From assembly GCA_036444275.1 (NCBI GenBank), contig JAZGAD010000039.1:1-25548 (forward strand): a stretch of DNA of 25,548 nucleotides, written 5' to 3'. The DNA is from Candidatus Hydrothermarchaeales archaeon (GTDB lineage: Archaea; Hydrothermarchaeota; Hydrothermarchaeia; Hydrothermarchaeales; JAZGAD01). Under the pieces are notes generated by a model that did not search any database, was not told where the DNA came from, and saw nothing but the letters and a program-made list of their open reading frames with translations. Below, in pieces: positions 18 through 25,256 of this stretch. Both the position numbers and the translations under genes were made by a program. The first letter of the stretch is position 1; every line of letters begins with the position of its first letter.

Positions 18-791
18 ATGCTCGTCTTCGTGGGCTTAGGGCTGAATGACGAGAGGGACCTCACCCTGAAGGGCTTGGAGGAAGCCCGCTCCTGCGATCT
101 ATTATTCGCAGAGTTCTATACCAGTGCCCTCTCTATTACTTCTGAAGAGATAGCTAGGCTTGTGGGAAAGGAGATTATAGTTCTTGATAGGAGCGAAATA
201 GAAGAGAAGGAGGATATGATACTGGAACCAGCGACAAAAAAGAAGGTATGCCTCCTAGTACCTGGCGATCCACTTATATCCACGACTCATATATCTCTGC
301 GAATTGAAGCTAAAAAACGAGGCATAGAGACTAGGGTGGTGCACAATGCCTCCATATCTTCGGCCGCCCCATCGGTCTCAGGCCTGCAGAATTACAAGTT
401 CGGCAAATCAGCAAGCATAGCTATGCCCGAAAAAGGCTTTTCCCCTGAAACGCCGTACGATGTCGTGAAAGAGAATAAAGCACGGGGACTGCACACCCTC
501 TTATTCCTGGACATAAAGGTTGATGGCGAAAAGAGGAGATTGTTGACAGCTGGGCAGGCGATGAAAATACTTTTGGATACCGAGGCAAAGCGAGGTGAAG
601 GCGTCTTTACAGCTGAGACTCTGTGCATCGTCCTGGGAAAGGTGGGCTCAGAAAATTGCGTTGTGAAGGCAGGGAATGTTAAAGATTTATTGACACAGAC
701 TTTTGGAGCGCCGCCTCACACATTGATAGTGCCTGGGAGACTCCACTTTATGGAGGAAGAATACTTGAGGGAATTCGGAGGGTTGAAATGA
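18..791 (+). CDS. dph5: Diphthine synthase (diphthamide biosynthesis methyltransferase)
   Basis: N-terminal LVFVGLGL..RDLTLKG, AEFYTS, PGDPLISTTH, GLQNYKFGKSASI and GLHTLLFLDI motifs typical of Dph5. Confidence 0.95.
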   Translation: MLVFVGLGLNDERDLTLKGLEEARSCDLLFAEFYTSALSITSEEIARLVGKEIIVLDRSEIEEKEDMILEPATKKKVCLLVPGDPLISTTHISLRIEAKKRGIETRVVHNASISSAAPSVSGLQNYKFGKSASIAMPEKGFSPETPYDVVKENKARGLHTLLFLDIKVDGEKRRLLTAGQAMKILLDTEAKRGEGVFTAETLCIVLGKVGSENCVVKAGNVKDLLTQTFGAPPHTLIVPGRLHFMEEEYLREFGGLK

Positions 792-1363
792 GGCTGCATT
801 CAGATAAAAAGGGGCTTCGTGCTCTTGGTATTGCTGAGAGCTTTCAGAAAGGTGTGAGCGAGAAGTCGATGCTTGCAGGCGTTGTTATGCGTGGTGACCT
901 GCAGATAGACGGTTTTGAGTTGACGTTTATAACAGTAGGCGGTCTAGATGCTACAGAGGGCGTGCTACGGTTATACAACAGTCTAGGGAGGCGGGACATT
1001 AACCTCCTGCTATTGAACGGCTGTGTGATAAGCTGGTACAACATCATAGACCTAGAAGAAGTCTTCAAGGCACTAGAGATACCCATGATATGCGTTACCT
1101 ACGAGGAGAGCGAGGGCCTGGAGAAGTATTTTAAGGAATTCGAGGATTCAGAGAAACGCCTAGAGATATACAGGAGGGTGGGGGAGCGCACTCCTGTTAA
1201 GCTTCACACAGGCCACGAGGTCCTAGTGCGTTCATACGGCATAGACGATGAAAAAGAGGTAAAGAGGGTCTTGGACAAGTTTACTCTGCAGGGCGCTGTG
1301 CCGGAACCCTTGAAGGTGGCTAGGCTCCTGGCAAGAGCAGCTATAAAGAAAGAATTGGCATAA
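788..1363 (+). CDS. DUF99 family protein (endonuclease V-like fold)
   Basis: LGIAESF, GVVMRGDLQIDG, GLDAT, GCVISWYNIID and VPEPLKVARLLA motifs. ATGA overlap with dph5. Confidence 0.88.
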   Translation: MRLHSDKKGLRALGIAESFQKGVSEKSMLAGVVMRGDLQIDGFELTFITVGGLDATEGVLRLYNSLGRRDINLLLLNGCVISWYNIIDLEEVFKALEIPMICVTYEESEGLEKYFKEFEDSEKRLEIYRRVGERTPVKLHTGHEVLVRSYGIDDEKEVKRVLDKFTLQGAVPEPLKVARLLARAAIKKELA

Positions 1364-1371
1364 CTTTTTTC

Positions 1372-1391
1372 GAATGCCCAGCATACTATTT
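1372..1391 (+). repeat. Left inverted repeat GAATGCCCAGCATACTATTT
   Basis: Exact reverse complement of 6771-6790 (AAATAGTATGCTGGGCATTC). Confidence 0.92.
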
Positions 1392-1413
1392 GCCCCGTTT
1401 TACTTTCTTCTGA

Positions 1414-1437
1414 GTTGCCGTTCATCTTCTGTCTTAT
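1414..1437 (+). repeat. Direct repeat copy 1 (GTTGCCGTTCATCTT..GTCTTAT)
   Basis: 14/15 identity with 6293-6307 (GTTGCCATTCATCTT). The match extends through G(T/A)CTTAT with a 2-nt gap. Confidence 0.6.
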
Positions 1438-1503
1438 CATCGACCTAGATTGTGATCAAGCGCTAGACTCTGCAATCCAAAAATCTGGGCAGTATACAAA
1501 CCA

Positions 1504-1559
1504 CCAAAAAACTTATTTTTGGCAAGTTAAACTTTACATTTGCTAAAAACTTATTTTAG
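1504..1559 (-). terminator. Two palindromic oligo-T sites with identical ACTTA spacer, probably terminating the island operon
   Basis: CCAAAAA-ACTTA-TTTTTGG (1504-1522) and CTAAAA-ACTTA-TTTTAG (1543-1559) directly downstream of the McrC-like stop codon. Confidence 0.45.
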
Positions 1560-1561
1560 AC

Positions 1562-3274
1562 CTATTTTTCAGAATGTTTTTCCAGTATTCTGACCAAAAA
1601 TTCATCTAAAGTTTTCAGGTCCTCATGATTAAGAGGTTTTAAAGGAATAGCCCCAACGCCATCAAATCCTTCTATTGAATCTACCGATGTTCTTTCACTG
1701 TCTCCGTTGTCTTTTTTCTCATAAAATCTGAAATTCTCAGTGTCCCCGGGATAGAGTAGACAAACAGAAATAGCTTGGTTTATGGCATCTTTATACGTAT
1801 GCATCTTATAGATGTCGCCTCGTTTAAAAGTAGAGCTAGTTTTTTCTTCGGTCTCAATCTCATCGTTTACTTTTTCCGGGAAGTCAACTTTATCGATTTT
1901 GAACTTAGCATCGAAGATGTATTTCTTTCCTTCTAGTTCTAAAGAAATATCCGGTCTTAATGGTAGAGAATAAGATTTTTTACAATCTTTTCCGAAGTAT
2001 GTTTTATTGTAGTAAAGTTCAATTTTTGGGAATTTTTTACTCTTATCCCAAACAATCTTATTGTAATATCGAAGCTCAACTCTTTTTTCTGTTGTCCTAT
2101 CTATACGAGCCTTTTTTGGTGGTCCTAATATTTTTCTAAGTATTTCTACCATTTTAAAATAAGTCCAGTATTCATAGAGGGTTGCAATGTCCTTAGAATC
2201 AATTATTGATCTCAGATCATCCTCGTTTATAGGATAATTTGTGGCTAGGTTAAGTCTTGAAAAGTGCATTAAGATCTCTCTGTATCCCTCTTTTCGTTGC
2301 AATACAGATGAGCTTGAGGGAATAAAAGTAAGGTCACCTATCTCTTGAAAAAAGTTATTACTAAGCAGGGTTTTGATTTGTCCCAACATCAAATGGCAAT
2401 CATATTCAATCTCGGCATCAAGAAGTTCTGTTTCATTCTTCAATAGTTCCTGAAACCTCTTTATAACATCCTGGCAAGCATTAAGAAAATATTTTACGAA
2501 TCTGTTTTCAGGCGTATCATAGTCTTTAATGGTCTCTTCGACAAAGATTCTCTCAGGAAAGAAATATTCTTTCTTTGCGCTTATATCTCTGATCTTTTGA
2601 GCTAAGGATGTAACGGCTAAACTTGATTCAGGTTCTATCTTTACTAAGTTTTCAGGATTAGTGAATATCTTCTCTATAGTTGTAACATTAATGTTTGAGG
2701 CTTTCGAAACATCTTTTAATTCAATTTTTTTCTCTCTTTTAAAATGAGGGCTATAGAGAATTTTATTTACCTGTCCTTTAAGACGATCAAAATTTTTTAC
2801 TTGTAGCATTATATATCGAAGATATACAAAATTATGGTAAAGTACCTCTATGGGCCAATATTCTGTTCTATCAAATGGCAAAAAAGTAGGTGAATTATAA
2901 TCATAAGGCAGTGCTTTTATTATGGTTGATATTTCTTCTAATAATTCTTTAAATTCATCAGCACTAATTTTTTTGTTTTCTATATCTAGTTCTACTCCGT
3001 AGAATTTGGATGTTCCTACAAAGTTTTTATAATTTAATATCCCCGCTTTTTTCTCTCGCCCGAACCACTTGAAAACCTGTTTACTAAACTTAAACTCGTC
3101 TCCCGGGTCTTCTTGGAATTCTACATGATATTCTGACTGTTCATGCAAGCAAAGCTTATTGTCCTTGCAATCTAATTTATAATCGTCTTTTCCTTTTGAG
3201 ATATAAACTATATTATCATTAACTTCGACTTTAGCTTTATTATCTTCTAGTTTAATTTCCACTTCGGTCATCAT
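1562..3274 (-). CDS. McrC-like nuclease (DUF2357 + PD-(D/E)xK domain)
   Basis: YDTPENRFVKYFL and LYEYW (DUF2357), RPDISL...FDAKFK nuclease motif, and DIYKMHTYKDAI. ATGA overlap with the upstream McrB-like gene. Confidence 0.88.
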   Translation of the reverse strand: MMTEVEIKLEDNKAKVEVNDNIVYISKGKDDYKLDCKDNKLCLHEQSEYHVEFQEDPGDEFKFSKQVFKWFGREKKAGILNYKNFVGTSKFYGVELDIENKKISADEFKELLEEISTIIKALPYDYNSPTFLPFDRTEYWPIEVLYHNFVYLRYIMLQVKNFDRLKGQVNKILYSPHFKREKKIELKDVSKASNINVTTIEKIFTNPENLVKIEPESSLAVTSLAQKIRDISAKKEYFFPERIFVEETIKDYDTPENRFVKYFLNACQDVIKRFQELLKNETELLDAEIEYDCHLMLGQIKTLLSNNFFQEIGDLTFIPSSSSVLQRKEGYREILMHFSRLNLATNYPINEDDLRSIIDSKDIATLYEYWTYFKMVEILRKILGPPKKARIDRTTEKRVELRYYNKIVWDKSKKFPKIELYYNKTYFGKDCKKSYSLPLRPDISLELEGKKYIFDAKFKIDKVDFPEKVNDEIETEEKTSSTFKRGDIYKMHTYKDAINQAISVCLLYPGDTENFRFYEKKDNGDSERTSVDSIEGFDGVGAIPLKPLNHEDLKTLDEFLVRILEKHSEK

Positions 3275-5031
3275 TCTATGAAACTTACAAATCCTTGATC
3301 TTTTAGCTTATTCAACATCCGATAAATCTTAATAGCGGATCTAGGATAAAGAGCCTCCTTTGCTACTTCCCGCGGAGCAGAATTCTCAGAATCTCCCCCC
3401 TCCTCTGTATTTTTTTCATCTTTTAATTCGAAAGAAGGTGTATTATCCTCAAGTTCTATAGAGTTCCATAGGGTGTCTGGTAAAATACCTTTTAGAACAT
3501 CGCCTTTAGAACTTCTATGCCCATCGAGACAGTATCTCAGCAGCCTGCTTAGTGGCATTTCTAGTTTATGTTTACTCCCATGAAACTTAGGTAGAACCTT
3601 TTGTAAAATCTGCAAATCAAAAGCTATATCCAAATTCTTTTTCTCATCTTCACTAAATCTATAACTTAGTGAAGTATCGGAATTGTGAATGTAAAATAGA
3701 ATCTCGTTTACAACCCTGTAACCAAAATGTAAGTTGTAGTCTCTTAAAATCTCATTTATATCTACTAATCTAGCGTAATAGTTTTGATAATTATTAATTA
3801 GATCATTCTTAACAAAAGTTAAATCCAATAACTTAAGGTGATAGGATCCTCCGTTGGTAAATTCGGATATCTCTGAATCTGATGCTGTAAATGAATCCTC
3901 ACCATTTTTAGAACTATCTCTATAGGCTTTTAGGTTTACCGCGTTAAACTCGATGGTGTTTGCCCTATCTAAGACTTTAGGGCTAAACATATAGGTGGTT
4001 TCATCAATATTCACGGTCCCTGTAAAATAGAGGTTTGGGGGAATTTCAATCTTAGGTGGAATTACATATTCGATACCGTCATCTCCTTTTACAACAAGGT
4101 CTCTGTTTTTATTATGCAATACCACCGGTTCCTGTTGGATCTCGCCATCGTCCCCAATTTTCCTACTTTCTAGACAGCTCAAGAAGTCTGAGAAGTAATA
4201 TTCAACTTTTGCAAGATTCATTTCATCAAGGATCACAAAATAAGGTTTTGATGCTTCTTTCTTTTCTTGATATTCCCTGTAAGCTCGCAACATTAGCTTT
4301 AGGAATTCCGTGGGTTCATATTTTTCGGTTAAAAGATTATAAAATCCGAGTAAACCTTTATTATCTGACCATTCTGGCCGCACAGAAATAAAGGCATATC
4401 TTTTTTCTTTCCTTTTAATTTTCTTTCTAAGTAACTTCTCAAATCTCAGTTTTGGAACCTTGTCTTTGTCTCCGTGTATTTTTTCAATATGTAGTGTATC
4501 TTCATCCACCTTTAGGTTGGTAATCCATTTTTTCAATTCCCCTTTAAATCCAACTTGATCAATGGAGCCCTTATCTTTTCCTCTTATAAGATACTGTAAC
4601 GTGCATTTTTGTGACTTACCATCGAAGAGGATTTCAATTTTCTTTTGTGTTTTCAACTCAGGCATATCAAACCAATTTCCTATCTTAACCGGAACAGTCC
4701 AACTATCTTTAGAAGTTTTTTTGACCTCCCAGTAAAAATTTGTCTCATCATTTTCCGGGAATGATTCAATAAAAGGAATCCCCTCTTCTTCAGAATACAT
4801 ATATTCTGCAAAAAATTGTGCAATTTTTGTTTTGCCTGTTCCGGAGATTCCTGTCAATATTACAAATGGTTTGGTTTTAAGTGCTAAGTAATAGTTGTTC
4901 ACGACTTCTTCGAGGAAGTAAAAATTCTTTGAACATATGAAATTATAAAATCCATTATCCTGTTCTTTGATTATAGGTACATACCATTCCTCCCCATCCT
5001 TGTCTGTTTCAATTTTGTATTCAGGTAGCAT
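3271..5031 (-). CDS. McrB-like AAA+ GTPase of the DUF2357-partner class, with internal insertion
   Basis: KPFVILTGISGTGKT (Walker A), SVRPEWSD..GLLGFYN, VILDEMNLAKVEYYFSDFLS (Walker B), GTVNIDETT..FSPKVLDRAN, FGYRV and QKVLPKFHG. Confidence 0.92.
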   Translation of the reverse strand: MLPEYKIETDKDGEEWYVPIIKEQDNGFYNFICSKNFYFLEEVVNNYYLALKTKPFVILTGISGTGKTKIAQFFAEYMYSEEEGIPFIESFPENDETNFYWEVKKTSKDSWTVPVKIGNWFDMPELKTQKKIEILFDGKSQKCTLQYLIRGKDKGSIDQVGFKGELKKWITNLKVDEDTLHIEKIHGDKDKVPKLRFEKLLRKKIKRKEKRYAFISVRPEWSDNKGLLGFYNLLTEKYEPTEFLKLMLRAYREYQEKKEASKPYFVILDEMNLAKVEYYFSDFLSCLESRKIGDDGEIQQEPVVLHNKNRDLVVKGDDGIEYVIPPKIEIPPNLYFTGTVNIDETTYMFSPKVLDRANTIEFNAVNLKAYRDSSKNGEDSFTASDSEISEFTNGGSYHLKLLDLTFVKNDLINNYQNYYARLVDINEILRDYNLHFGYRVVNEILFYIHNSDTSLSYRFSEDEKKNLDIAFDLQILQKVLPKFHGSKHKLEMPLSRLLRYCLDGHRSSKGDVLKGILPDTLWNSIELEDNTPSFELKDEKNTEEGGDSENSAPREVAKEALYPRSAIKIYRMLNKLKDQGFVSFIE

Positions 5032-5032
5032 T

Positions 5033-5236
5033 TTAGCCCTCCTCCAAATTTGGTATTTCTATATCTCTCCTGACATATGCTTTAACAATTGCTACTGCCA
5101 AGAACTTTCTAAGAAAATCTTCGGCAAATTCACCCTTCCTTATATCAAAAACGCCTAAATGCACCTTATCTTTTGATATTTCAATCTCACTTGTTTTCAA
5201 GATGTTTCTTGCCTGGAATATCCAAACATTTTCCAT
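5033..5236 (-). CDS. 67-aa hypothetical protein in the defence operon (N-terminus resembles the first EVE strand, WIFQA)
   Basis: ATG preceded by a GAGGGA RBS. The ORF fills the gap between its neighbours and its stop lies 1 nt before the McrB ATG. Confidence 0.6.
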   Translation of the reverse strand: MENVWIFQARNILKTSEIEISKDKVHLGVFDIRKGEFAEDFLRKFLAVAIVKAYVRRDIEIPNLEEG

Positions 5237-5248
5237 TGTTCCCTCACA

Positions 5249-6250
5249 TCATCCTATAGGTATAGCATTGTTTCTAATAACTTTTTTTGCCTCTTCTTCC
5301 CAACCATCAGGTAAAGTACCTCCCTGATTTGCGACTAAATCGGACATCTTTTCTAGGATAGTTGATATTTTAAGCTTATTATTGGAACCTAATTCTTCAA
5401 GTGCTTGAGAAAATAACTTGTAGTATAGATCGATGTCTCCTCCTTTTGAGATATAATCTCCTTTTATTAAATTTGGATAGACATACCCGTTTTCTATTCG
5501 AAATTTTTTGGTTTTTGGAGTAAGATAACCTTTGACATCACTGAAAACCAGGGAGTATTCTCCATCTCCACCAATTTTAACATTAGGGATTATATCCGGA
5601 GAATTATCTTTTTCCAGTGGAATCTCTTCAAATTCCCTCTTTTCTCCCCCCTCAATTTCGAATTCAATGGAGGTTATATTGTCGTTAGAATCGAATATTT
5701 TATATGAACAGTCGATATTTACATGAACTTTAAGGTCTGTTATGGGCGTCTTTTTTGCAAAATTGTAAATGAGTTCCCAGTCCTCTGGTTCTAACTTATG
5801 CACGGTCCCCGGTTTGTAAATGGCCTCCCTTTTAAGCTTATCTTTAATATCCCGTATGCTAATTCTTGAAGTCGAACTAACCAGCCAGTCAACAGGTTTG
5901 GTATGTTGGTACTGTATATCGCCGCGATCCTCATATTTGTATCCACCTGTTACCCTGCCCACACCGAATATAGATAAACCACCTGCATAGGCAATCACAC
6001 CATCTCCTTCTTTTATCTCCAAAAAATCATTGATATGTCTGGCAGATTGCCCAAGCTGGCCTTTATTTCCTTCACCCCCTGCTTCTGTTATCCTCCTTTT
6101 TATCTCATCTTTTGTTGGATTATCAGATAAATCTCCGATATAAGACCATCCTATGGCCACCCAGCCATTTGAAATGAATTCATCCCAGTACTCCTCTTCA
6201 TTACCCTTTTCGCCAGCCTTCACACTCCAATAATTTGGTTCTTCCGGCAT
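5249..6250 (-). CDS. Stand-alone putative modified-base reader: EVE/PUA-like N-terminal domain, PEGA/Ig-like middle domain, helical C-terminus
   Basis: YWSVKAG..WDEF...GWVAIGW...IKEGDGVIA...GVGRVTGGYKY...HTKPVDW matches N-terminal domains seen on McrB/Mrr proteins. GEYSLVFSDVKGYLTP resembles PEGA-like repeats. GGAGGTGA RBS. Confidence 0.7.
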   Translation of the reverse strand: MPEEPNYWSVKAGEKGNEEEYWDEFISNGWVAIGWSYIGDLSDNPTKDEIKRRITEAGGEGNKGQLGQSARHINDFLEIKEGDGVIAYAGGLSIFGVGRVTGGYKYEDRGDIQYQHTKPVDWLVSSTSRISIRDIKDKLKREAIYKPGTVHKLEPEDWELIYNFAKKTPITDLKVHVNIDCSYKIFDSNDNITSIEFEIEGGEKREFEEIPLEKDNSPDIIPNVKIGGDGEYSLVFSDVKGYLTPKTKKFRIENGYVYPNLIKGDYISKGGDIDLYYKLFSQALEELGSNNKLKISTILEKMSDLVANQGGTLPDGWEEEAKKVIRNNAIPIG

Positions 6251-6292
6251 AGCTAGAACCTCACCTCCTCAATCATTGAATTCAAATGTTTT

Positions 6293-6314
6293 GTTGCCAT
6301 TCATCTTGACTTAT
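6293..6314 (+). repeat. Direct repeat copy 2 (GTTGCCATTCATCTTGACTTAT)
   Basis: Matches 1414-1437. Lies between the NUDIX gene and the reader gene. Confidence 0.6.
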
Positions 6315-6329
6315 ATAGTTCCTGAGCCT

Positions 6330-6713
6330 CTAACCTTCCTTTATTTTCTCAACAATAGCTATATCTGCCTCCACAAAATCATATTTTTCAAATTCTTTCA
6401 GCAAGATCCATTTTATTTCTTCGTGCTCGTTTAATTTAAACTCTCCCGAAAGATGCTTTACCTTATAGGCCAATAATTCAATTAACCCATGGCTATATTC
6501 ATGTTTGCTGGAGCCTACAAAATCGTTAACTCCTGTCTTAATACCGAATTCCTCTAAAAGCTCTCTTTCAAGGCATTGTTTTGGGGTTTCACCCTCCTCT
6601 AACTTGCCCCCTGGAAACTCCCACTTACCCTCTAACTGTCCTCCTTTCTTTCTTCTAGAAACCAATATTTTACCATTCTTTTCAATCACAACAGCAGTTA
6701 CTTTTACACATAT
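6330..6713 (-). CDS. MutT/NudG-like NUDIX (d)NTP pyrophosphohydrolase; start uncertain (ATA 6713 or GTG 6689)
   Basis: WEFPGGKLEEGETPKQCLERELLEEFGI Nudix box. The in-frame upstream sequence VKVTAVV supplies the conserved first strand. Confidence 0.88.
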   Translation of the reverse strand: MCVKVTAVVIEKNGKILVSRRKKGGQLEGKWEFPGGKLEEGETPKQCLERELLEEFGIKTGVNDFVGSSKHEYSHGLIELLAYKVKHLSGEFKLNEHEEIKWILLKEFEKYDFVEADIAIVEKIKEG

Positions 6714-15435: not shown

Positions 15436-15555
15436 CGGACCCGCCGGGATTTGAACCCGGGCTGCAGGGTGTCTCCCCTAGGTAGCCATGCTACTATGTG
15501 TGCCAACTAGACCGAGGGCCGAAGCCCTGTATACTATCCACTATACTACGGGCCC
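15436..15555 (-). tRNA. tRNA-Arg(TCG) with a 48-nt intron at position 37/38 (intron 15471-15518); CCA not encoded
   Basis: Acceptor stem GGGCCCG/CGGGTCC, anticodon stem CAGGG/CCCTG, loop CT-TCG-G^A, T-arm CCGGG-TTCAAAT-CCCGG. Canonical bulge-helix-bulge: CTTC/GGAG central helix, bulges GGC and ACA, CCT/AGG outer helix. Confidence 0.93.
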
Positions 15556-17531: not shown

Positions 17532-17835
17532 GCAGCGAGCTGGAGGGCATCTGTCGCTATCGTTCTATGAACGAGGGTGAGGAAACTCCGCTCATCTCAC
17601 GGGAACCCGACTCCTGAAAGGGAGAGGCTGAGAGGCCTAGCTCTGGAGCAGAAACGATACACTGCTGCATGGTGGATAATGAGCACGATGGTGTGAAGAC
17701 GTGCAGTGGATGGTGAAACGGCCAACTTCGGGGATGCAAGCCTGAGTATCGCCGTTGAGACCCGTGCAAGGCGAGTAATAGGCGCATTAGACGAATGATG
17801 CCGAAACATAAGGCGGGTTACTCCCAGCACGCTGC
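17532..17835 (+). ncRNA. rnpB: RNase P RNA (archaeal, probably type A)
   Basis: GAGGAAACTCCG (CR-I), GCAGAAAC, TGAAACGGC, GCAAG, TAGACGAATG and AACATAAGGCGGGTTA (CR-V). P1 pairing GCAGCGAGCTGGAG / CTCCCAGCACGCTGC. P8/P9-like hairpins are present. Confidence 0.93.
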
Positions 17836-19061: not shown

Positions 19062-19137
19062 CAAGCTAATTTTGTATATTCTACCTCTAAGAAAATTTAA
19101 ATATCCAGAGCAAGAACAAGATGTAGGAGGTGAAGCT

Positions 19138-19290
19138 GTGAGAATAGTTAAATTATGCGTTGACGAAAGCTGTCCGGTTGTCGAGCTGGGCGACGACTAC
19201 GTAAGGATCGGCGAGGAAGGCAACCTCTGTACCCTACAACTGGAGGAGTGGAGCGCCCTCAAAGAGAAAGTCCTCAAAGGGGAGCTATAA
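19138..19290 (+). CDS. 50-aa protein with C-x4-C motif, DUF397-like
   Basis: GTG after GGAGGTG RBS. Translation: MRIVKLCVDESCPVVELGDDYVRIGEEGNLCTLQLEEWSALKEKVLKGEL. Confidence 0.65.
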   Translation: MRIVKLCVDESCPVVELGDDYVRIGEEGNLCTLQLEEWSALKEKVLKGEL

Positions 19291-19405
19291 ATTACTCTAC
19301 GAAATAGCCTTGTCTTGCCACAATAGCACGCGCTAAGAAATTGTTTTCGTTAAATTTGGGGTGAGGAGATGAAAAGTCTAGAAAGGAGAGTGCAGTGGAG
19401 GAAGC

Positions 19406-20476
19406 ATGAAAGCTGTAGCGGTGATTCCTGGGCAGACGGACAGCGTCCGCATAGTTAATGTGGATAAACCAGAGATCAGCGCTGGCGAAGTATTGGTAGA
19501 GGTTATTAGAGTCGGCGTTGATGGTACAGATATCGAGATAAACGAGGGGTTATACGGCGAAGCGCCCGAAGGCGATGCTTTCCTGATTATTGGACACGAG
19601 TCTTTGGGTATAGTGCGGGAGGTTGGAGATGGAATAAGCAACTTTAAAAAAGGCGACTATGTGGTGGCAACTGTCAGGAGACCTGACGACTGTCTAAACT
19701 GTAGGGCAGGAGAATACGACATGTGCTTGACCGGGGATTACAAAGAAAGAGGGATTAAAGGGCTGCACGGCTTCATGTCAGAGTTTTATAAGGAATCACA
19801 TGAGTTCCTAGTTAAAGTTCCAGAAAAAATTAGTGAGTTGGGAGTCTTACTCGAGCCGTTGAGCATCGTAGAGAAAGCTGTATCCCAGGCATATAAGATA
19901 CAAGAGCGACTTGAGTGGCAACCGAAAACGGCCTTGGTAACAGGGGCAGGTGCGATAGGGATACTAGCATGCCTAGTCCTGCGAAACATGGCCCTAGATG
20001 TATACGTGGTGGCGAGGAGCTCGGCAGAGGGGAATCCCAAGGCGGATTTGATTAGAGAATGCGGTGCTACTTATATCAGCAGCAGTGGACAGCCAATATC
20101 CAGCCTTAAACTTGGGAATATAGACCTGCTGGTAGAGGCTACCGGGAGCTCTGCAGTCGTATTCGATGCTATAAAGGTGCTCGGCACAAATGGCGTTGCC
20201 GCGCTGACGAGTATCACTGCAACAGAGGATGTACACGAGGTTTGCGCTGCCTGCATAAATCTCGATATGGTGCTGAACAACAAGGTTGTATTCGGCAGCG
20301 TGAACGCTAACCGGAGACACTTCGAGATGGGTCTAGTTCACCTCCCGGATTTTGAAAGGAAATGGCCAGGTTTATTGGGTAAGATCATTACGAGGAGAGT
20401 GCCATTCAGACAGTTTAGAGAGGCACTGGAGAGGAGGAAGGGGGATATAAAAATAGTTATTGAGGTCCAAATGTGA
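19406..20476 (+). CDS. Zn-dependent glucose 1-dehydrogenase (MDR family)
   Basis: GVDGTD, GHESLG, VRRPDDCLNC..YDMC, ERGIKGLHGFM, LEPLSIVEKA, GAGAIG and GSVNANRRHF. Confidence 0.88.
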   Translation: MKAVAVIPGQTDSVRIVNVDKPEISAGEVLVEVIRVGVDGTDIEINEGLYGEAPEGDAFLIIGHESLGIVREVGDGISNFKKGDYVVATVRRPDDCLNCRAGEYDMCLTGDYKERGIKGLHGFMSEFYKESHEFLVKVPEKISELGVLLEPLSIVEKAVSQAYKIQERLEWQPKTALVTGAGAIGILACLVLRNMALDVYVVARSSAEGNPKADLIRECGATYISSSGQPISSLKLGNIDLLVEATGSSAVVFDAIKVLGTNGVAALTSITATEDVHEVCAACINLDMVLNNKVVFGSVNANRRHFEMGLVHLPDFERKWPGLLGKIITRRVPFRQFREALERRKGDIKIVIEVQM

Positions 20477-20787
20477 AGATCGAACTCCTATACTTCGATG
20501 ATTGTCCTAATTATAAGAAGACACTAGAGGATGTGAACGAGTTGCTGAAACAGGAGGGTGTTGAAGCAGAGATAGCTATGATAAGGATCGAGACCCAAGA
20601 AGAGGCAGAGAAGCTGGGCTTCCTGGGTTCGCCGACGTTGCGTATAGCAGGAAAGGACGTAGATGAAAAAAGCAGGGACTCTAAAGAATTTGGATTGAAG
20701 TGCAGGATCTATCTGGTGGGAGACAAGATTTTAGGTTCGCCGCCGAGAGAGATGATAATGCAGACATTGAAAGAGGCTAAGGTATGA
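20473..20787 (+). CDS. Thioredoxin-fold protein of the type associated with mer/merB loci
   Basis: IELLYFDDCPNY...FLGSPTLRIAGKD...CRIY...GSPP. GTGA overlap with gdh. Confidence 0.8.
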   Translation: MKIELLYFDDCPNYKKTLEDVNELLKQEGVEAEIAMIRIETQEEAEKLGFLGSPTLRIAGKDVDEKSRDSKEFGLKCRIYLVGDKILGSPPREMIMQTLKEAKV

Positions 20788-21497
20788 GGATTTCCAAGAT
20801 TGCTCCAGATGCCAACGAAAGAGCCAGATCCGTCCTAGAGAGCATTCATGCTACGGTGGATATAGACGCCAAGTGGGGCAAGAGTTTGAGCCCGGACGAG
20901 GATGAAATACGCAGGTTTATCCTGACGGAATTTCCAAGCTTAGGCAGAGTGCCAACGATGGAGGAAATAAAAGAAGGCCTAGGTTTAACCACGACGGATG
21001 TCTCTCAATCACTGGAGACGCTTAACGAATTGGACATAATCTACATGAAGGACGATAGGATTTTGGGTGCATATCCATTCTCAAGTGAGCCGACCCCCTA
21101 TCTTGTAACATTCAAAGGCAGAGAAAAAAGGAGGGCCTATGCCCTCTGTGCCATTGATGCACTTGGCATACCTTTTATGTTTGGTGAAGACGTGGATATC
21201 GAGTCTTCATGCGCTCACTGCAGTGGGAAGATAAAGATCAAGGTTGAGGATGGAAGGATCATAGAGTGTGAGCCTAAGGAAGCGCTGGTATGGATTGGCT
21301 TAAAGTATTCCTGTCATGCTGCAACCTCTCTATGCACTTCTCTAATCTTCTTCCAGTCAGAGGAGCACTTGCTGGAATGGCGTGCGGAAAATCCTAGTGA
21401 AGATGGGGAGGCTCTCACTCTATCTGAAGCGTTATATGTTGGAAAGGAGCTCTTTGAGGCTAGATTAGGCCTTGCACATAGTTCTACTGGGACCTAA
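20784..21497 (+). CDS. merB: Organomercurial lyase MerB-like protein with N-terminal HTH-like region
   Basis: AYPFSSEPT, YALCAIDALGI (catalytic Cys/Asp equivalents), ESSCAHC and LCTSLIFFQSEE (second catalytic Cys). Confidence 0.8.
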   Translation: MRISKIAPDANERARSVLESIHATVDIDAKWGKSLSPDEDEIRRFILTEFPSLGRVPTMEEIKEGLGLTTTDVSQSLETLNELDIIYMKDDRILGAYPFSSEPTPYLVTFKGREKRRAYALCAIDALGIPFMFGEDVDIESSCAHCSGKIKIKVEDGRIIECEPKEALVWIGLKYSCHAATSLCTSLIFFQSEEHLLEWRAENPSEDGEALTLSEALYVGKELFEARLGLAHSSTGT

Positions 21498-21627
21498 CAA
21501 GCTACCCGGAGGAGTTCAAGAGACTTGATCTGGATAATGTATCCCACTCTATCTAACACCATTGAATACATGGTCAGCCCAGAGATGGCCATTACTAATA
21601 AATAAATAATAACACCAAGGATACCTG

Positions 21628-22086
21628 ATGATTAAGAAACCTGTAACCGAGAACGAGAGGCTCTTCTCGTCTGTCCTTTTAGTCTTTATAGTATACTTCG
21701 GGTTGAACTCCATAATATTCTCACTGTTCGGTAGAGATACAATATTCGTACACTATTTGATGACCTTCTCCTTTCTAGGCGGCATGGCGTGTGGCGTTTT
21801 ATTTTTCCTGTGGACTAATCCTAAGTCAAAAGAAAATGGCGATATCAATGCATTGGAAAAGAATATACGGATTTTGAAGAAGGCATTGAGCGAGGACGAA
21901 CGTATCCTTGTTGATATGATAAGGGAAGCCGAGGGACTGACTCAGGACTCACTAAGATTCAGGACGGGGTTCTCGAAGTCTAAAGTGAGCTATTTAGTAT
22001 CAGAATTAGAAAAAAAGGATGTTATAGTACGAGAAAGACTTGGAAGGACATATAAATTATTCATTTCTGATTGGTTAAGAAAATAG
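21628..22086 (+). CDS. Membrane protein with C-terminal winged-helix (COG2512-like membrane-anchored regulator)
   Basis: Two hydrophobic segments followed by LSEDER...GLTQDSLRFRTGFSKSKVS..ELEKK...ERLGRTYKL. Confidence 0.8.
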   Translation: MIKKPVTENERLFSSVLLVFIVYFGLNSIIFSLFGRDTIFVHYLMTFSFLGGMACGVLFFLWTNPKSKENGDINALEKNIRILKKALSEDERILVDMIREAEGLTQDSLRFRTGFSKSKVSYLVSELEKKDVIVRERLGRTYKLFISDWLRK

Positions 22087-22221
22087 GGAGCTATATACCG
22101 ATATGGACGGTTTTCGGTTTTTAAAAGGCAGTAACTCCCTGAATTGCATTTGCATGTATAATGGTATGCTAGGCAATTTATAACTGCTCTGCGGAATAAC
22201 CTAATGGCGAGGTGATTAAAA

Positions 22222-22512
22222 ATGAATGATAAAACAAGTTTGAAAATTCTCTTGGTGGGACTTGGGCTCTTACTGGTCTTCTCGGCAATTGTCTCGGCGC
22301 ACGAGAATAGAATAACGGAGTCCGGGAATAGAATAACGGGCTGGTGGGCAGAGATGAAGGAACACCACCTTGAGATACATGGCGATGACTTCGAAGAGCA
22401 CCACATAGAGATGCACGGCGAAGACTGGGAAGAGCATGTAGAGACATGCCATGCTGATACGGATTTAGAGGGTATGCATGGAGATACCGACCATATGATG
22501 TCATCCATGTAG
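22222..22512 (+). CDS. Secreted His/Met/acidic-rich small protein, putative metal binder
   Basis: Signal peptide ending VSA-H, repeats HHLEIHGDDFEE / HHIEMHGEDWEE, GAGGTGA RBS, oligo-T tract after the stop. Confidence 0.78.
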   Translation: MNDKTSLKILLVGLGLLLVFSAIVSAHENRITESGNRITGWWAEMKEHHLEIHGDDFEEHHIEMHGEDWEEHVETCHADTDLEGMHGDTDHMMSSM

Positions 22513-22628
22513 AACCTTTTTATTTATTTTATTACAACGATATGGACATCTAATCTATAAACCATGTAAACTCTTGAATCGAAGGAGATGTGCAGGAAGC
22601 CTATAAAAATGCCGGTAGTAGGGAAGAT

Positions 22629-22964
22629 ATGACGCTGAAGAAAGAACACTATGTATTTGGAGCCCTTGTTGCACTGTTTTTGATTATAGTCGGATACGAG
22701 GGCTATACCAACTACACCCATTATGGGCACCATGCCGCAATGCACGGCACAGCGGGGGGCATGATGGGGTCAAGTATGTTGGGGTTTAGTCTCTTGTTTT
22801 GGGTCCTGCTATTTGCCTTTGTATTTTTGATATTCAAATACCACGAAGACAGTGGAGAGGAGGAGGACACCGCAATAGAAATAATCAAGGAGAGATATGC
22901 GAGGGGAGAGATAACGAAGGAGCAATACCTCGAGATGTTCAAGGACCTCAAGAAAAGAGAGTAA
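22629..22964 (+). CDS. SHOCT-domain membrane protein with His/Met/Gly-rich loop
   Basis: Two TM segments around HYGHHAAMHG..MMG, and C-terminal AIEIIKERYARGEITKEQY. Confidence 0.85.
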   Translation: MTLKKEHYVFGALVALFLIIVGYEGYTNYTHYGHHAAMHGTAGGMMGSSMLGFSLLFWVLLFAFVFLIFKYHEDSGEEEDTAIEIIKERYARGEITKEQYLEMFKDLKKRE

Positions 22965-22989
22965 AATAATACAAGTTGCCTGCTCCTGA

Positions 22990-23466
22990 TTAATAGAGCA
23001 CATACAGTAGCAGATAAATTGAGATACCTGTGAGAAATGAGATTATCCATGTTGCAACAGTCGCGTACCCAATCTTTCTATGCCAGCGGTATTTTTCTTT
23101 CGCATGGAATACCCTTACCTTCCCCTTAACGGTGCTGTTCCTGTAGCCGTATAAAACCATGTATCCAGCTAGGACCAAGACTGCAACAGAGATGAGGGAG
23201 TGCAAAATCACAACGGGCAGGTAAAGCAATTTGTACATATTCTCTGGGCCCTTGAATTCTGTAGAGCCCTCCACGAGCCTCTTCGCCATATAGCTGACCA
23301 TGAACGTGAAATCAAAGACGAAGCCGATAGTCATGAGTTTATAGTGTAACAAGCTGCGATGCCTTCTGGCATAGAAGACTCCGCCCAAGAATACTATGGT
23401 GACCGCTATCTCCAAGGTCAAACTTAGATCCGAAAAACTTCCTGCCGAGGTCCCATAGAAACCCAT
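22990..23466 (-). CDS. DUF420 family membrane protein
   Basis: Four TM helices with conserved His residues: LHYKLM, ILHSLIS and WHRKIG...W..SFLTG..IY. Confidence 0.8.
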   Translation of the reverse strand: MGFYGTSAGSFSDLSLTLEIAVTIVFLGGVFYARRHRSLLHYKLMTIGFVFDFTFMVSYMAKRLVEGSTEFKGPENMYKLLYLPVVILHSLISVAVLVLAGYMVLYGYRNSTVKGKVRVFHAKEKYRWHRKIGYATVATWIISFLTGISIYLLLYVLY

Positions 23467-23584
23467 GCTGTATAGATTGCATTAGGGAATAAAAAACGTA
23501 TCTATTTCAAGATACTATACTGCACTGCACTACACTATTATTCGTCGTTTGAAAGTAACTCTAGTCTAAAACTACAATCCTAGC

Positions 23585-23596
23585 AAAATTTATAAG
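23585..23596 (+). promoter_or_regulatory. Putative BRE/TATA promoter
   Basis: AAAATTTATAAG about 35 nt upstream of the small ORF at 23632. Confidence 0.45.
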
Positions 23597-23631
23597 ACAT
23601 AGGGTTCCATATAGATTTAGGAGTGAGGAAA

Positions 23632-23700
23632 ATGAGTGTCAGGAAAATTGAGAAGGGACTTAGGTACGGAGCATGTAAGTGCCACAAGAGCTGCATGTAA
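23632..23700 (+). CDS. Unannotated 22-aa Cys/His/Met peptide MSVRKIEKGLRYGACKCHKSCM
   Basis: ATG preceded by GGAGTGAGG RBS and a TATA box. Lies upstream of the YHS gene. Confidence 0.5.
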   Translation: MSVRKIEKGLRYGACKCHKSCM

Positions 23701-23779
23701 GTGGACCTTAAGAGATCTGCGCTCTGGGATTAGAAGCTGGAGCGGGAAAATATAAATAAATAGAAGGGAGGCTAGACCG

Positions 23780-24016
23780 ATGGCGAAGGACCCAATTTGT
23801 AATATGGATGTAGACGAGGCCACCGCGGAGCATACGTCTGAGCATGAGGGACAGACCTATTACTTCTGCGCTGCAGGATGTAAAACAAGCTTTGAGGAAA
23901 ACCCAGAGAAGTTCCTCAAAGGCGCAGCAGCCGAAGAGAAAGCTGAGATGAAGATGCCAGAGCACGCGATGCCTCGCGAGGAAGCAAAAGAGAAGCCTTG
24001 GTGGAAGTTCTGGTAA
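23780..24016 (+). CDS. YHS/TRASH-domain metal-binding protein
   Basis: KDPICNMDV...YYFCAAGCKTSFEENPEKF with a KPWWKFW tail. Confidence 0.9.
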   Translation: MAKDPICNMDVDEATAEHTSEHEGQTYYFCAAGCKTSFEENPEKFLKGAAAEEKAEMKMPEHAMPREEAKEKPWWKFW

Positions 24017-24131
24017 TCTTTAGAAAGCATTAGGCCAACTGAAGAGACCATAGCTCGAAGGCTGGATTAAGTTTTCATTAGTATTAGTTAGGCAGAACTT
24101 TTCTGATTATGATTTGTGCGTTTCTCGCGCT

Positions 24132-25256
24132 CTATCCCCCTAGTTCCGCATCAATAAGTTGCTGGAAATCCTGATAGGGCCGGGCTCCCCCGATCTTTAT
24201 CCCATTTATAAAGAAGGCTGGTGTGCCAGTAACTCCAGCATTTACCCCTTTCTGCATGTTACTCAATACAGCCTCCGCATATTTCGTTGAGTCAAGGCAT
24301 TCGTTGAAAGCTGCTGAATCTAGGCCGAGTTCTGACGCATATTTATTCAACTCGTTGAGTTCGTCCTCTGAATCTGGAGCAAATCTGGACCATACGCCCT
24401 GATTGGCAAAGAGCTTGTCGTGATATTCAAAATACTTGTCCTGCTCGCCTGCGCATCTCGCAGACACATGGGCTATGAAGGCCTGGGGATGAATAGAAGT
24501 TAGAGGGAAGTCCATAAGGACATACTTGATCTTTTCACCATACTGCCCGAGAACCTGATCGAGGGTTTGATCCCGAAACTTCTTGCAGAAGGGGCACTGG
24601 TAATCGTTGAACTCTATCATGGTTACGGTTGCATTCTCCGGCCCAGTCACATATGCGGCATCGCTTGTATCTATCGTCGGCTTCTGGGGTTGCTGAGTCG
24701 GCGTGGGAGTAGGTTGGGGCACGGTAGGTGTTAAAAGGGTCTCCCCGCTTTCTGGAAGGTCCACTATTCCTCCGCCTTCCCCCAAGAGGATGAGCTTGCC
24801 ATCCTTCGAAACGTACACCGATATCTGTTGGGTTGTATCCCCCCTATTAAGTGTCAGATCCACGACATAGAGATTCTTGCCGTATTCCTTTACCGCTACG
24901 AGTTCTCCCTCTATGCCTTGGGGCTTCAAAAAGTTCTCTGCCATATAAGCCAGCGTCCTACTTCCCATTTCCTCCTTTGAGACACTGGATTCTCCTGTAA
25001 GGTTCCAGAGCAACAGAGGTTCTTGAGTCTGAGAAGGCTTCCCACATTCGACTGGAGAAGAGTATAGTTCTCCTCCTTCCTTTGCTCCCGGGGAATAATT
25101 GATAAGCGAGCTGACCAAAAAACCAGCTGCGAATAATACTACGCCAATAATTATGAGGTAGACTTCCCTCCGTTGAATCGCTGGTATCTCTTTCTCTTTC
25201 GCGTTCTCTTCCGTGTTCTCTTTTTCTTTCTCTTCTTTTTCTTTCATATTCCCCAC
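24132..25256 (-). CDS. Membrane-anchored DsbA/thioredoxin-family oxidoreductase
   Basis: N-terminal TM, Pro/Thr linker, EFNDYQCPFC, DFPL..IHPQA and GVTGTPAFFING. Confidence 0.92.
   Translation of the reverse strand: MGNMKEKEEKEKENTEENAKEKEIPAIQRREVYLIIIGVVLFAAGFLVSSLINYSPGAKEGGELYSSPVECGKPSQTQEPLLLWNLTGESSVSKEEMGSRTLAYMAENFLKPQGIEGELVAVKEYGKNLYVVDLTLNRGDTTQQISVYVSKDGKLILLGEGGGIVDLPESGETLLTPTVPQPTPTPTQQPQKPTIDTSDAAYVTGPENATVTMIEFNDYQCPFCKKFRDQTLDQVLGQYGEKIKYVLMDFPLTSIHPQAFIAHVSARCAGEQDKYFEYHDKLFANQGVWSRFAPDSEDELNELNKYASELGLDSAAFNECLDSTKYAEAVLSNMQKGVNAGVTGTPAFFINGIKIGGARPYQDFQQLIDAELGG

What the first reader, a model, noticed from the sequence alone, without database searches (positions are those of the whole stretch)
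19406..21497. Translationally coupled glucose dehydrogenase - thioredoxin-fold - MerB operon without merA or merR
Seen: GTGA and ATGA stop/start overlaps link three genes. The MerB-like protein keeps the Cys-x-x-Asp and distal Cys catalytic equivalents. The GDH has Asp in the GVDGTD catalytic-zinc position, as in haloarchaeal GDH. Established: MerB cleaves C-Hg bonds and normally hands Hg(II) to NADPH-dependent MerA; it is uncommon in archaea. Inference: an alternative organometal-detoxification module in which GDH supplies NAD(P)H and the Cys-bearing thioredoxin-fold protein accepts or reduces the metal. Alternatively the MerB fold has a non-mercury role.
Basis: partly seen in the sequence, partly recalled or inferred. 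Interest (0 to 1): 0.7.

Follow-up and report, generated by a model that had tools for sequence, protein, structure and literature searches.

The report
MerB with a two-cysteine thioredoxin-fold partner
An archaeal methylmercury-cleaving enzyme gene sits directly behind a small two-cysteine protein that in other microbes is fused to the same enzyme or to a mercury transporter, so this small protein is a good candidate for the unknown helper that takes up the released mercury; the sugar dehydrogenase in front is a local neighbour only.

Summary
Three co-directional genes overlap by 4 nt: a haloarchaeal-type glucose dehydrogenase (GDH), a 104-aa thioredoxin-fold protein, and a MerB with an intact Cys-Asp-Cys site. 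No MerA, MerT or MerF was found in this 81%-complete Hydrothermarchaeota genome.

- The small protein belongs to the uncharacterised "DF"/DUF2703 family. It has two invariant cysteines (C11, C77) and no CxxC.
- It recurs beside MerB relatives in 10 of 107 loci, including bacterial mer operons with MerF, MerC and MerR.
- It is naturally fused, in the same N-to-C order, to MerB (5 proteins), and also to MerT with or without HMA (5 proteins).
- It most likely accepts Hg(II) from MerB.

GDH adjacency is not conserved: 0 of 107 MerB loci, and none of the DF loci examined. GDH orthologues sit beside a glucoamylase-like gene or a thioredoxin reductase. An NADPH-supply role is therefore possible but weakly supported.

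Contigs from two other studies, 96-98% identical, keep GDH-DF but lack about 815 nt holding merB. merB is thus strain-variable.

MerB without MerA is already known to be common. The novelty is the DF family as a candidate mer component. The scan had noted DF beside an arsenite pump on other DNA.

The parts
19406..20476 (+). Zn-dependent MDR glucose 1-dehydrogenase-like gene (356 aa). Asp39/His64/Glu65/Glu150 stand at the catalytic-zinc positions. Cys96/Cys99/Cys107 stand in the structural-zinc lobe.
20473..20787 (+). DF-family / DUF2703 thioredoxin-fold protein (104 aa, GTG start). Its only two cysteines, C11 (DCPNY) and C77 (KCRIY), are invariant in the family. Proposed Hg(II) acceptor or partner of MerB.
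20784..21497 (+). MerB-family organomercurial lyase (237 aa). Catalytic equivalents are C122, D125 and C184; C143-x-x-C146 is an extra pair.
20473..20476 (+). GTGA overlap: stop of GDH and start of DF.
20784..20787 (+). ATGA overlap: stop of DF and start of merB.
20778..21589 (.). Segment of about 815 nt (merB plus about 95 nt of 3' flank) that is absent from 96-98% identical contigs of two public runs. It is a strain-level presence/absence polymorphism. Its GC of 0.469 is like the genome's 0.465.
19123..19290 (+). Small conserved Cys protein (about 55 aa) upstream of GDH. In the same-family genome G027 its homologue lies directly before DF-ArsR, with no GDH between. Neighbour; role unknown.
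21628..22086 (+). Membrane-anchored winged-helix protein (DUF7343/MarR-like). It is the first gene of a downstream metal-related stretch: a His-rich protein at 22222-22512, a SHOCT membrane protein at 22590-22964, DUF420 at 22990-23466 (-), a YHS protein at 23780-24016, and a DsbA-like protein at 24132-25256 (-). Context, not shown to belong.

Best explanation
The locus is a compact, probably co-transcribed run of three genes, of which only the last two form a functional unit.

MerB is a genuine organomercurial lyase that cleaves the C-Hg bond. The DF-family thioredoxin-fold protein encoded just upstream uses its two invariant cysteines (C11, C77) to take the tightly bound Hg(II) product off MerB. 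This frees the enzyme for the next turnover and keeps Hg(II) away from other thiols. That is the job done by MerA and its N-terminal domain in classical operons (this comparison is recalled, not tested).

In this MerA-less anaerobe the metal would then be passed on or precipitated by means not encoded here.

GDH is a lineage-specific neighbour. At most it helps keep the thiol pool reduced by making NAD(P)H.

Shown: the gene structure, the conserved residues, the recurrent DF-mer adjacency, the DF::MerB and DF::MerT fusions, and the strain-variable merB. Inferred: Hg(II) binding by DF, the direction of transfer, any role of GDH, and co-transcription.
For: (1) MerB is real. PF03243 scores 119.6 bits and the C/D/C triad plus the C117 equivalent are conserved.

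(2) Relatives of this MerB sit in bona fide mer contexts.
- G034: ArsR, MerA (538 bits against a cut-off of 454), MerB, MerT/HMA.
- Nitrospira moscoviensis: MerR, MerF, MerB::MerT.
- 22 of the 120 listed homologues carry a MerT domain.

(3) A DF homologue lies within the fetched flanks of 10 of 107 MerB-relative loci; L023 and L113 are the same contig. Architectures:
- DF-MerF-MerC-MerB (L061).
- DF-MerF-?-MerB, with a MerA-like flavoprotein further on (L067).
- DF-MerB (L065).
- MerB-MerF-MerR-DF-like (L080).
DF is otherwise rare: over the cut-off in 7 of 38 genomes of this phylum and in 3 of 201 of a bacterial phylum.

(4) Rosetta-stone fusions exist with the DF domain N-terminal, matching the gene order here.
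- DF::MerB: a Streptomyces plasmid protein of 328 aa, P0101 and P0110, and P0336, P0348 and P0366.
- DF::MerT or DF::MerT::HMA: P0304, P0312, P0389, P0334 and P0340.
- So 8 of the 18 DF representatives of 230 aa or more, among the top 150, are fused to mercury-specific domains.
- Ten of these fusions, and the partial P0322, were aligned; all keep both DF cysteines. The five DF::MerB proteins among them also keep the MerB triad. The Streptomyces plasmid protein was not aligned.

(5) C11 and C77 are invariant in 49 homologues. One bacterial homologue has an in-frame TGA exactly at the C77 position, as expected for a reactive thiol or selenol.

(6) The closest MerB homologue carrying a taxon name (63% identity, Hydrothermarchaeaceae) and a DF homologue (56%) both list an 11,818-nt longest contig. 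This suggests the pair is kept in the family, but it is an indirect fingerprint.

(7) The AlphaFold model of DF is confident (pLDDT 94.6). It shows a thioredoxin-like core, with C11 at the N-terminus of helix 1.
Against: - No experiment or structure shows DF binding Hg.
- DF is not mercury-specific. In this phylum only 2 of 8 DF loci adjoin MerB. Two adjoin ArsR and two adjoin a thioredoxin plus a radical-SAM gene. In another phylum 0 of 3 DF loci adjoin mer genes.
- A DUF2703 gene lies in, and is induced with, a Rhodococcus ars cluster (PMC6514093, passages read).
- Five MerB-bearing genomes tested have no DF.
- Near-identical strains keep GDH-DF but not merB. DF therefore has a role without MerB.
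- The MerB scores fall below NCBI's equivalog cut-offs: 80 against 193, and 76 against 200.
- Co-transcription was not tested.
Confidence: 0.6

Rival explanations
1. DF is a redox protein rather than a metal acceptor. Its C11/C77 pair cycles between dithiol and disulfide and is re-reduced by an NAD(P)H-dependent reductase. It keeps MerB's (and MerT's) cysteines reduced, or resolves enzyme-thiol adducts. GDH supplies the NAD(P)H, which is the electron-supply part of the first reader's model.
For: - Thioredoxin-like fold; the nearest solved sequences are the MJ0307 and MTH895 thioredoxins.
- On actinobacterial plasmids, DF lies between a MerR-type regulator and a 450-aa glutathione-reductase-like flavoprotein. 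That flavoprotein is below the MerA cut-off: 268-271 bits against 454.
- The GDH orthologue of G031 overlaps by 4 nt a thioredoxin-reductase gene (323.5 bits against a cut-off of 343). A ferredoxin:thioredoxin-reductase-like gene follows it.
- GDH-DF stays linked in strains that lack merB.
Against: - DF has no CxxC; the second position is Tyr, His or Trp.
- The fusions are to Hg-binding and Hg-transport proteins, not to reductases.
- GDH-DF adjacency was seen only in this species.
- The two roles are not mutually exclusive.
Confidence: 0.2
2. The three genes are functionally unrelated neighbours, packed together in a small, gene-dense genome. The overlaps reflect compaction only.
For: - Four-nt overlaps occur in 101 of 896 same-strand pairs.
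- The same window has overlapping pairs with unrelated annotations: a methylase with an Endo_dU protein, and DUF359 with ribosomal protein S24e.
- GDH adjacency is not conserved.
- merB is an indel between strains.
Against: The DF-MerB pairing recurs across domains of life and as fusions, which chance packing does not explain. This rival remains good for the GDH gene alone.
Confidence: 0.1
3. The MerB-like protein acts on something other than organomercurials, such as another organometal, or serves in metal binding. The module would then be a non-mercury system, like the SAO system with its MerB-like SaoL and thioredoxin-like SaoT.
For: - The best NCBIfam row is SaoL, at 89.5 bits, and all MerB equivalog scores are below cut-off.
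- An extra near-invariant CxxC (C143, C146) is present.
- No MerA, MerT or MerF is found in the genome.
- The neighbours look copper-related: YHS, His-rich and SHOCT proteins.
- The SAO preprint proposes organometallic chemistry for a MerB relative with a thioredoxin-like partner (10.1101/2022.07.06.499078, abstract and passages read).
Against: - The SaoL score is below its cut-off of 140, and there is no CC/CU dipeptide at the distal Cys (SLCTSL).
- DF does not match the SaoT model at E <= 0.01.
- Asp is kept at the D99 position.
- Relatives are fused to MerT and sit next to true MerA.
Confidence: 0.08

Closest known systems
Organomercurial lyase MerB of broad-spectrum mer operons (plasmid R831b; PDB 1s6l/3f0p series), with hand-off of Hg(II) to MerA
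   Same: Same Pfam family. The Cys96/Asp99/Cys159 triad and Cys117 equivalents are all present. Relatives sit in mer operons.
   Different: E-value to R831b-type chains is only about 4e-9 to 7e-9, and scores are below NCBI equivalog cut-offs. It has an N-terminal extension (237 aa against 212) and an extra CxxC. No MerA, MerR or MerT is in the locus or found in the genome. The proposed Hg(II) acceptor is a DF-family protein, not MerA.
MerB2 of Bacillus megaterium (PDB 5c17)
   Same: Closest solved sequence (E 1.9e-18, residues 54-223), with the same fold family.
   Different: In the alignment 5c17 has Ser where this protein and R831b MerB have Asp. This protein is therefore of the canonical Asp type.
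SaoL/SaoT of the SAO system (Haft preprint 10.1101/2022.07.06.499078)
   Same: A MerB-like lyase is paired with a small MJ0307-like thioredoxin-fold Cys/Sec protein. DF weakly matches the MJ0307 family: TIGR00411 at 24.7 bits and PDB 1fo5.
   Different: The score is below the SaoL cut-off and there is no CU/CC motif. DF matches NF049942, not SaoT. No ABC transporter or other SAO genes are found among the annotated neighbours.
DF family (seleno)protein NF049942 / Pfam DUF2703
   Same: Full-length match of 113.4 bits against a cut-off of 70, and DUF2703 at 30.7 against 23.6.
   Different: The family is listed only as 'hypothetical protein DF' (PMC13188914, table passage read). DUF2703 is discussed only in an arsenic context and in a fold-classification paper (2 papers; of these, PMC6514093 passages were read, and PMC3091736 was seen only in the search listing). 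I found no link to mercury in print.
Haloferax mediterranei glucose dehydrogenase (PDB 2b5v)
   Same: Full-length alignment, E 2.4e-62, with Asp at the position that is Cys in Sulfolobus GDH.
   Different: It keeps three cysteines of the structural-zinc lobe (C96, C99, C107), as Sulfolobus GDH does. No enolase-type gluconate dehydratase or GH15 gene was found in this incomplete genome.

Membership tests
MerB (organomercurial lyase, PF03243) | Pfam domain over the gathering score | tested here: met
   119.6 bits against 27; single copy in the genome
MerB (organomercurial lyase, PF03243) | Cys96, Asp99, Cys159 and Cys117 (R831b numbering; criteria of PMC8261052) | tested here: met
   C122, D125, C184 and C143, by alignment to R831b-type chains; invariant in 13 homologues
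MerB (organomercurial lyase, PF03243) | NCBIfam equivalog or exception models over the cut-off | tested here: not met
   PRK13239 80 against 193; NF033555 76.3 against 200
MerB (organomercurial lyase, PF03243) | Protonolysis of C-Hg bonds | not testable with these tools
   needs an enzyme assay
Canonical mer operon | merA, merR and merT/P/F/C in the locus or genome | tested here: not met
   No such gene in the window. In the genome: MerA best 85.5 against 454, no MerT and no MerF. The genome is only 81% complete, and the MerF search rang in no control genome.
SaoL (NF040728) | Score over the cut-off and a CU/CC dipeptide about 50 residues from the C-terminus | tested here: not met
   89.5 against 140; the distal Cys is in SLCTSL
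DF family (seleno)protein NF049942 | Full-length model match over the cut-off | tested here: met
   113.4 against 70, profile positions 1-95 of 96
DF family (seleno)protein NF049942 | The two conserved Cys/Sec positions | tested here: met
   C11 and C77 invariant in 13 and in 49 sequences; TGA at the C77 position in one bacterial member
Classical thioredoxin/glutaredoxin | CxxC active site | tested here: not met
   CPNY here and CP-x-(H/W/Y) in the family; only weak fold matches, Foldseek E >= 4e-3 and TM about 0.5
MDR glucose 1-dehydrogenase (PF16912 + PF08240) | Both domains over the cut-off and the catalytic-zinc ligand positions | tested here: met
   211.4 and 72 bits; D39/H64/E65/E150 aligned to 2b5v. 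That these positions bind zinc is recalled knowledge.
MDR glucose 1-dehydrogenase (PF16912 + PF08240) | Glucose as substrate, and cofactor preference | not testable with these tools
   There are only context hints: GH15 lies next to the orthologues in G001 and G002.

The most novel reading that the evidence does not exclude
The DF/DUF2703-type two-cysteine (or two-selenocysteine) thioredoxin-fold domain is an unrecognised, widespread component of mercury systems. It would be a cytoplasmic Hg(II) acceptor that docks to MerB and to MerT, free-standing or fused. This would explain how MerB turns over and how cells survive in the roughly half of MerB-bearing genomes that lack MerA. More broadly it would be a general soft-metal(loid) chaperone, also used with arsenic pumps.
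Probability: 0.4. Interest if true: 0.75.

Novelty: new variant of a known kind. Interest (0 to 1): 0.6.

Why it matters
How MerB releases its Hg(II) product, and how cells tolerate that product without mercuric reductase, is an open problem stated in the mer literature (PMC8261052, passages read). A small protein family that is repeatedly adjacent or fused to MerB and MerT gives a concrete candidate, testable with simple biochemistry. It also affects how 'merB-only' genomes are read in environmental methylmercury budgets.

The finding also corrects two annotations. Stand-alone DF proteins are named 'alkylmercury lyase' in some RefSeq plasmids. The GDH should not be counted as part of a mercury module.

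Tried and rejected
- Complex prediction of MerB (A1) with DF (A2): verdict 'no answer', run scores 0.40, 0.00 and 0.00. This is neither for nor against binding.
- The look-up of sequencing runs: no RNA holder listed, so co-transcription could not be examined.
- Single-protein scan of metagenome contigs found nothing. The alignment-based scan worked.
The contigs of the closest MerB homologues (55-64% identity, P0002-P0008) could therefore not be read. I used only the weak contig-length fingerprint. No GDH homologue among the top 120 shares the 11,818- or 41,900-nt contig lengths.
- Foldseek of the DF model against the PDB gave only weak thioredoxin matches.
- No flanking direct repeats or target-site duplication lie at the merB indel. 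There is only a 3-nt GGC microhomology. Whether merB was inserted here or deleted in the relatives stays open; its composition is native-like.
- The small upstream Cys protein has variable neighbours elsewhere: TauE, MntP-like, acetyl-CoA synthetase. I do not count it as part of the module.
- No DF was found in five MerB-bearing genomes, and 0 of 3 DF loci in another phylum are near mer genes.
- A TATA-like string (GATATAAAAATAG, 20444-20456) lies before the DF start. It also encodes the conserved GDIKI end of GDH, so it cannot be read as a promoter.
Full report
**What is there.**

The window is contig C39 of a 1.49-Mb, 81%-complete archaeal genome. Its phylum group includes a record titled Candidatus Hydrothermarchaeota. 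The closest MerB homologue that carries a taxon name is from Hydrothermarchaeaceae.

Three + strand ORFs lie at 19406-20476, 20473-20787 and 20784-21497. They overlap by GTGA and ATGA, and Shine-Dalgarno-like motifs lie inside the upstream genes. A 115-nt spacer with an SD (GGAGGA) precedes the first gene. No oligo-T run follows the third, and an AT-rich stretch precedes the next gene.

Four-nt overlaps are frequent in this genome: 101 of 896 same-strand pairs in a crude ORF call. The overlaps are consistent with an operon but are not remarkable in themselves.

**The three proteins.**

- Gene 1 is an MDR Zn-dehydrogenase of the glucose-dehydrogenase type. Glu_dehyd_C scores 211 bits. The best solved relative is Haloferax mediterranei GDH, E 2.4e-62. 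Asp39 stands where Sulfolobus GDH has Cys.
- Gene 2 matches NCBIfam NF049942, 'DF family (seleno)protein', at 113 bits against a cut-off of 70. It also matches Pfam DUF2703, and only weakly matches MJ0307-type thioredoxins.
  - It has exactly two cysteines, C11 and C77. Both are invariant in 13 context-derived and in 49 database homologues. For the latter I left out 4 of the 53 hits because they were 135-182 aa long.
  - The CxxC of thioredoxins is CP-x-(Y/H/W) here.
  - A bacterial member has TGA exactly at the C77 position.
  - The AlphaFold model is confident (pLDDT 94.6) and thioredoxin-like. It has an insertion of about 25 residues that carries C77. Foldseek finds only weak thioredoxin matches.
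- Gene 3 is a MerB. PF03243 scores 119.6 bits. C122/D125/C184 and C143 align to C96/D99/C159 and C117 of R831b MerB, and all are invariant in its clade. It scores below NCBI's equivalog cut-offs for MerB and for SaoL. An extra Cys (C146) makes a CxxC.

**Mercury genes in the genome and the phylum.**

- In this genome: no MerA over the cut-off (best 85.5 against 454), no MerT and no MerF. There is one small HMA protein beside a Thioredoxin_3 gene on another contig.
- In the 38 species genomes of the phylum: MerB-like matches occur in 12 and MerA over the cut-off in 4. Only 3 of the 12 MerB-positive genomes have MerA.
- MerB without MerA is thus the local rule. It is already known to hold for about half of MerB genomes (PMC8261052, abstract and passages).
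- MerB in Hydrothermarchaeota was reported in 2025 (PMC12484752, one passage read).

**Is the gene order conserved?**

I collected 107 loci around MerB relatives: 10 from the phylum, 80 from metagenomes and 17 from species genomes. Many are short contigs. A tblastn with the window's proteins gave the following:

| Query | Loci with a match |
|---|---|
| GDH | 0 of 107 |
| DF | 10 of 107 (L023 and L113 are one contig) |

Pfam annotation shows that these are true mer contexts:
- L061: DF-MerF-MerC-MerB.
- L067: DF-MerF-?-MerB, with a MerA-like flavoprotein further on.
- L065: DF-MerB.
- L080: MerB-MerF-MerR-DF-like.

Other MerB relatives sit with ArsR-MerA-MerB-MerT/HMA (G034; MerA 538 bits), with CopZ-like/HMA proteins, or are fused to MerT.

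Seen from the DF side the link is partial.
- In the phylum, 2 of 8 DF loci adjoin MerB, 2 adjoin ArsR, and 2 adjoin a thioredoxin plus a radical-SAM gene. One lies 5.4 kb from a true MerA.
- In another phylum, DF occurs in 3 of 201 genomes and none is beside mer genes.
- On plasmids, 59 actinobacterial records hold a DF homologue. I looked at 7 of them, partly chosen for their annotation.
  - Three lie beside a MerR-type regulator and two beside ArsR/SmtB.
  - Two (L181, L183) lie beside glutathione-reductase-like flavoproteins that are below the MerA cut-off. One (L180) lies near an FAD-dependent oxidoreductase with only a weak ArsO-like match.
  - One is a DF::MerB fusion.

**Fusions.**

A search of 1.84 billion representatives with DF found 690 proteins at E <= 1e-10. 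Of the top 150, 18 are 230 aa or longer:

| Fusion partner | Count | Proteins |
|---|---|---|
| MerB | 3 | P0336, P0348, P0366 |
| MerT or MerT::HMA | 5 | P0304, P0312, P0389, P0334, P0340 |
| Other domains (NUDIX, ankyrin, ABC-2, SnoaL) or none recognised | 10 | - |

A 187-aa protein (P0322) is DF plus the MerB helix-turn-helix. Three further DF::MerB proteins came from other searches: a Streptomyces plasmid protein, P0101 and P0110.

DF is N-terminal in all of them, as in the gene order here. Ten of these fusions and P0322 were aligned. All keep both DF cysteines, and the five DF::MerB proteins among them also keep the MerB triad. The Streptomyces plasmid protein was not in that alignment.

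This is the strongest evidence that DF works with MerB and with the Hg(II) importer.

**Strain variation.**

Logan contigs of two DNA runs from two studies are 96-98% identical to the window.
- They cover 19079-20777, including the GDH/DF junction.
- They then join to 21587 or 21617, skipping 812-839 nt that hold merB.
- The DF reading frame then ends a few codons later, in the former intergenic DNA.
- merB has native-like composition, and no flanking repeats beyond a 3-nt microhomology.

So merB is dispensable at species level and GDH-DF is the stable pair. Whether this is a deletion or an insertion is undecided. These contigs are short and come from metagenomes.

**The dehydrogenase.**

Orthologues at 49-65% identity exist in 5 other genomes of the phylum, never beside MerB or DF.
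- In G001 and G002 a GH15 glucoamylase-like gene precedes them. This fits a sugar dehydrogenase.
- In G031 the orthologue overlaps by 4 nt a thioredoxin-reductase gene (323.5 bits against 343). A ferredoxin:thioredoxin-reductase-like gene follows, and a thioredoxin-domain (Thioredoxin_3) gene of 220 aa lies opposite.
- In the same-family genome G027 the small upstream Cys protein is followed directly by DF and ArsR, without GDH.
- This genome shows no enolase-type gluconate dehydratase and no GH15 gene (incomplete genome).

GDH therefore looks like a local recruit. An NAD(P)H-supply role for thiol chemistry is possible, since the link to thiol-redox genes arose twice, but it is unproven.

**Mechanism proposed.**

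MerB cleaves the C-Hg bond, and Hg(II) stays on its Cys pair. Current models invoke direct transfer to MerA (PMC8261052 citing Benison 2004, passage read). Here the two thiols of DF would take the metal, free the enzyme and buffer the cell.

The downstream fate is not encoded in the locus; export or sulfide precipitation are speculation. The main rival is a redox, disulfide-reducing role for DF fed by NAD(P)H. The two roles are not exclusive. Reduction of Hg(II) by this trio is unlikely because no flavoprotein is present.

**Literature.**

'DUF2703' occurs in 2 papers of the library. One is an arsenic cluster study, whose passages I read. The other is a fold-classification paper that I saw only in the listing. 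'DF family' appears as 'hypothetical protein DF' in a table. Searches for a thioredoxin-like partner of MerB or a fusion listed nothing relevant; I saw listings only. I therefore found no printed link of this family to mercury. Subscription journals are not covered.

Earlier notes of this scan place a DF selenoprotein beside an arsenite pump (e1-963517), and thioredoxin-like genes in MerA-less mer operons (e1-360258). These are unchecked leads that fit a soft-metal chaperone.

**Verdict.**

The MerB gene is an ordinary new member of its family, and the GDH link is local. The DF-MerB pairing is a new variant of mer systems worth testing.

Noticed in passing
window 17535-17832 (+) and 15436-15555 (-): An archaeal RNase P RNA (201 bits), and a 120-nt tRNA match that Rfam finds but ARAGORN does not. 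The tRNA probably contains an intron.
   Followed up: no
window 19123-19290 (+): A small (about 55 aa) conserved protein with an invariant LC...SCPVVE...IGEEGNL...EW...GEL pattern. It precedes DF in G027 and follows MerR in a bacterial mer locus (L062). Elsewhere it sits by TauE, MntP-like or acetyl-CoA synthetase genes. No Pfam family.
   Followed up: partly
L130 (G031:C11), 557-3713: Thioredoxin reductase, GDH orthologue (4-nt overlap) and a rubredoxin/ferredoxin:thioredoxin-reductase-beta fusion. A 220-aa thioredoxin-domain (Thioredoxin_3) gene lies opposite. A sugar dehydrogenase is thus embedded in a thiol-redox cluster.
   Followed up: partly
window 1562-6250 (-): A low-GC stretch (0.31-0.37 against 0.465 for the genome). 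It holds a DUF2357/PD-(D/E)XK McrBC-like gene overlapping a 586-aa gene with no Pfam match, and a 333-aa gene with no match. It looks like an acquired restriction or defence island.
   Followed up: no
window 21628-25256: A metal-related stretch lies downstream of merB: a membrane-anchored winged-helix protein, a His-rich secreted-looking 96-aa protein, a Met/His-rich SHOCT membrane protein, DUF420, a YHS protein and a membrane DsbA-like protein. SHOCT homologues also lie near MerB relatives in 7 of 107 loci, two of which are one contig.
   Followed up: partly
L178 (NZ_CP039433.1) 4001-4309; L181 (NZ_CP016284.1) 3501-3794: Stand-alone DF proteins of about 100 aa are annotated 'alkylmercury lyase' in RefSeq plasmids. 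The name was probably transferred from DF::MerB fusion proteins.
   Followed up: partly
L181 3873-5225; L183 4047-5399; L067 3229-4602: Flavoprotein disulfide reductases of 450-458 aa lie next to DF under MerR-type regulators. They reach no NCBIfam equivalog cut-off: MerA 268-284 against 454, glutathione reductase 298-312 against 480. They may be a dedicated reductase of unknown substrate.
   Followed up: partly
L025 (G014:C9) 5977-6682: The MerB relative of G014 is split into two overlapping ORFs of 167 and 75 aa. It is probably frameshifted or decaying.
   Followed up: no
L177 (G095:C16) 4731-5021: A DF homologue has an in-frame TGA at the position of the second invariant Cys (GLTURNY). It is a candidate selenoprotein form. 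No SECIS element was sought.
   Followed up: partly
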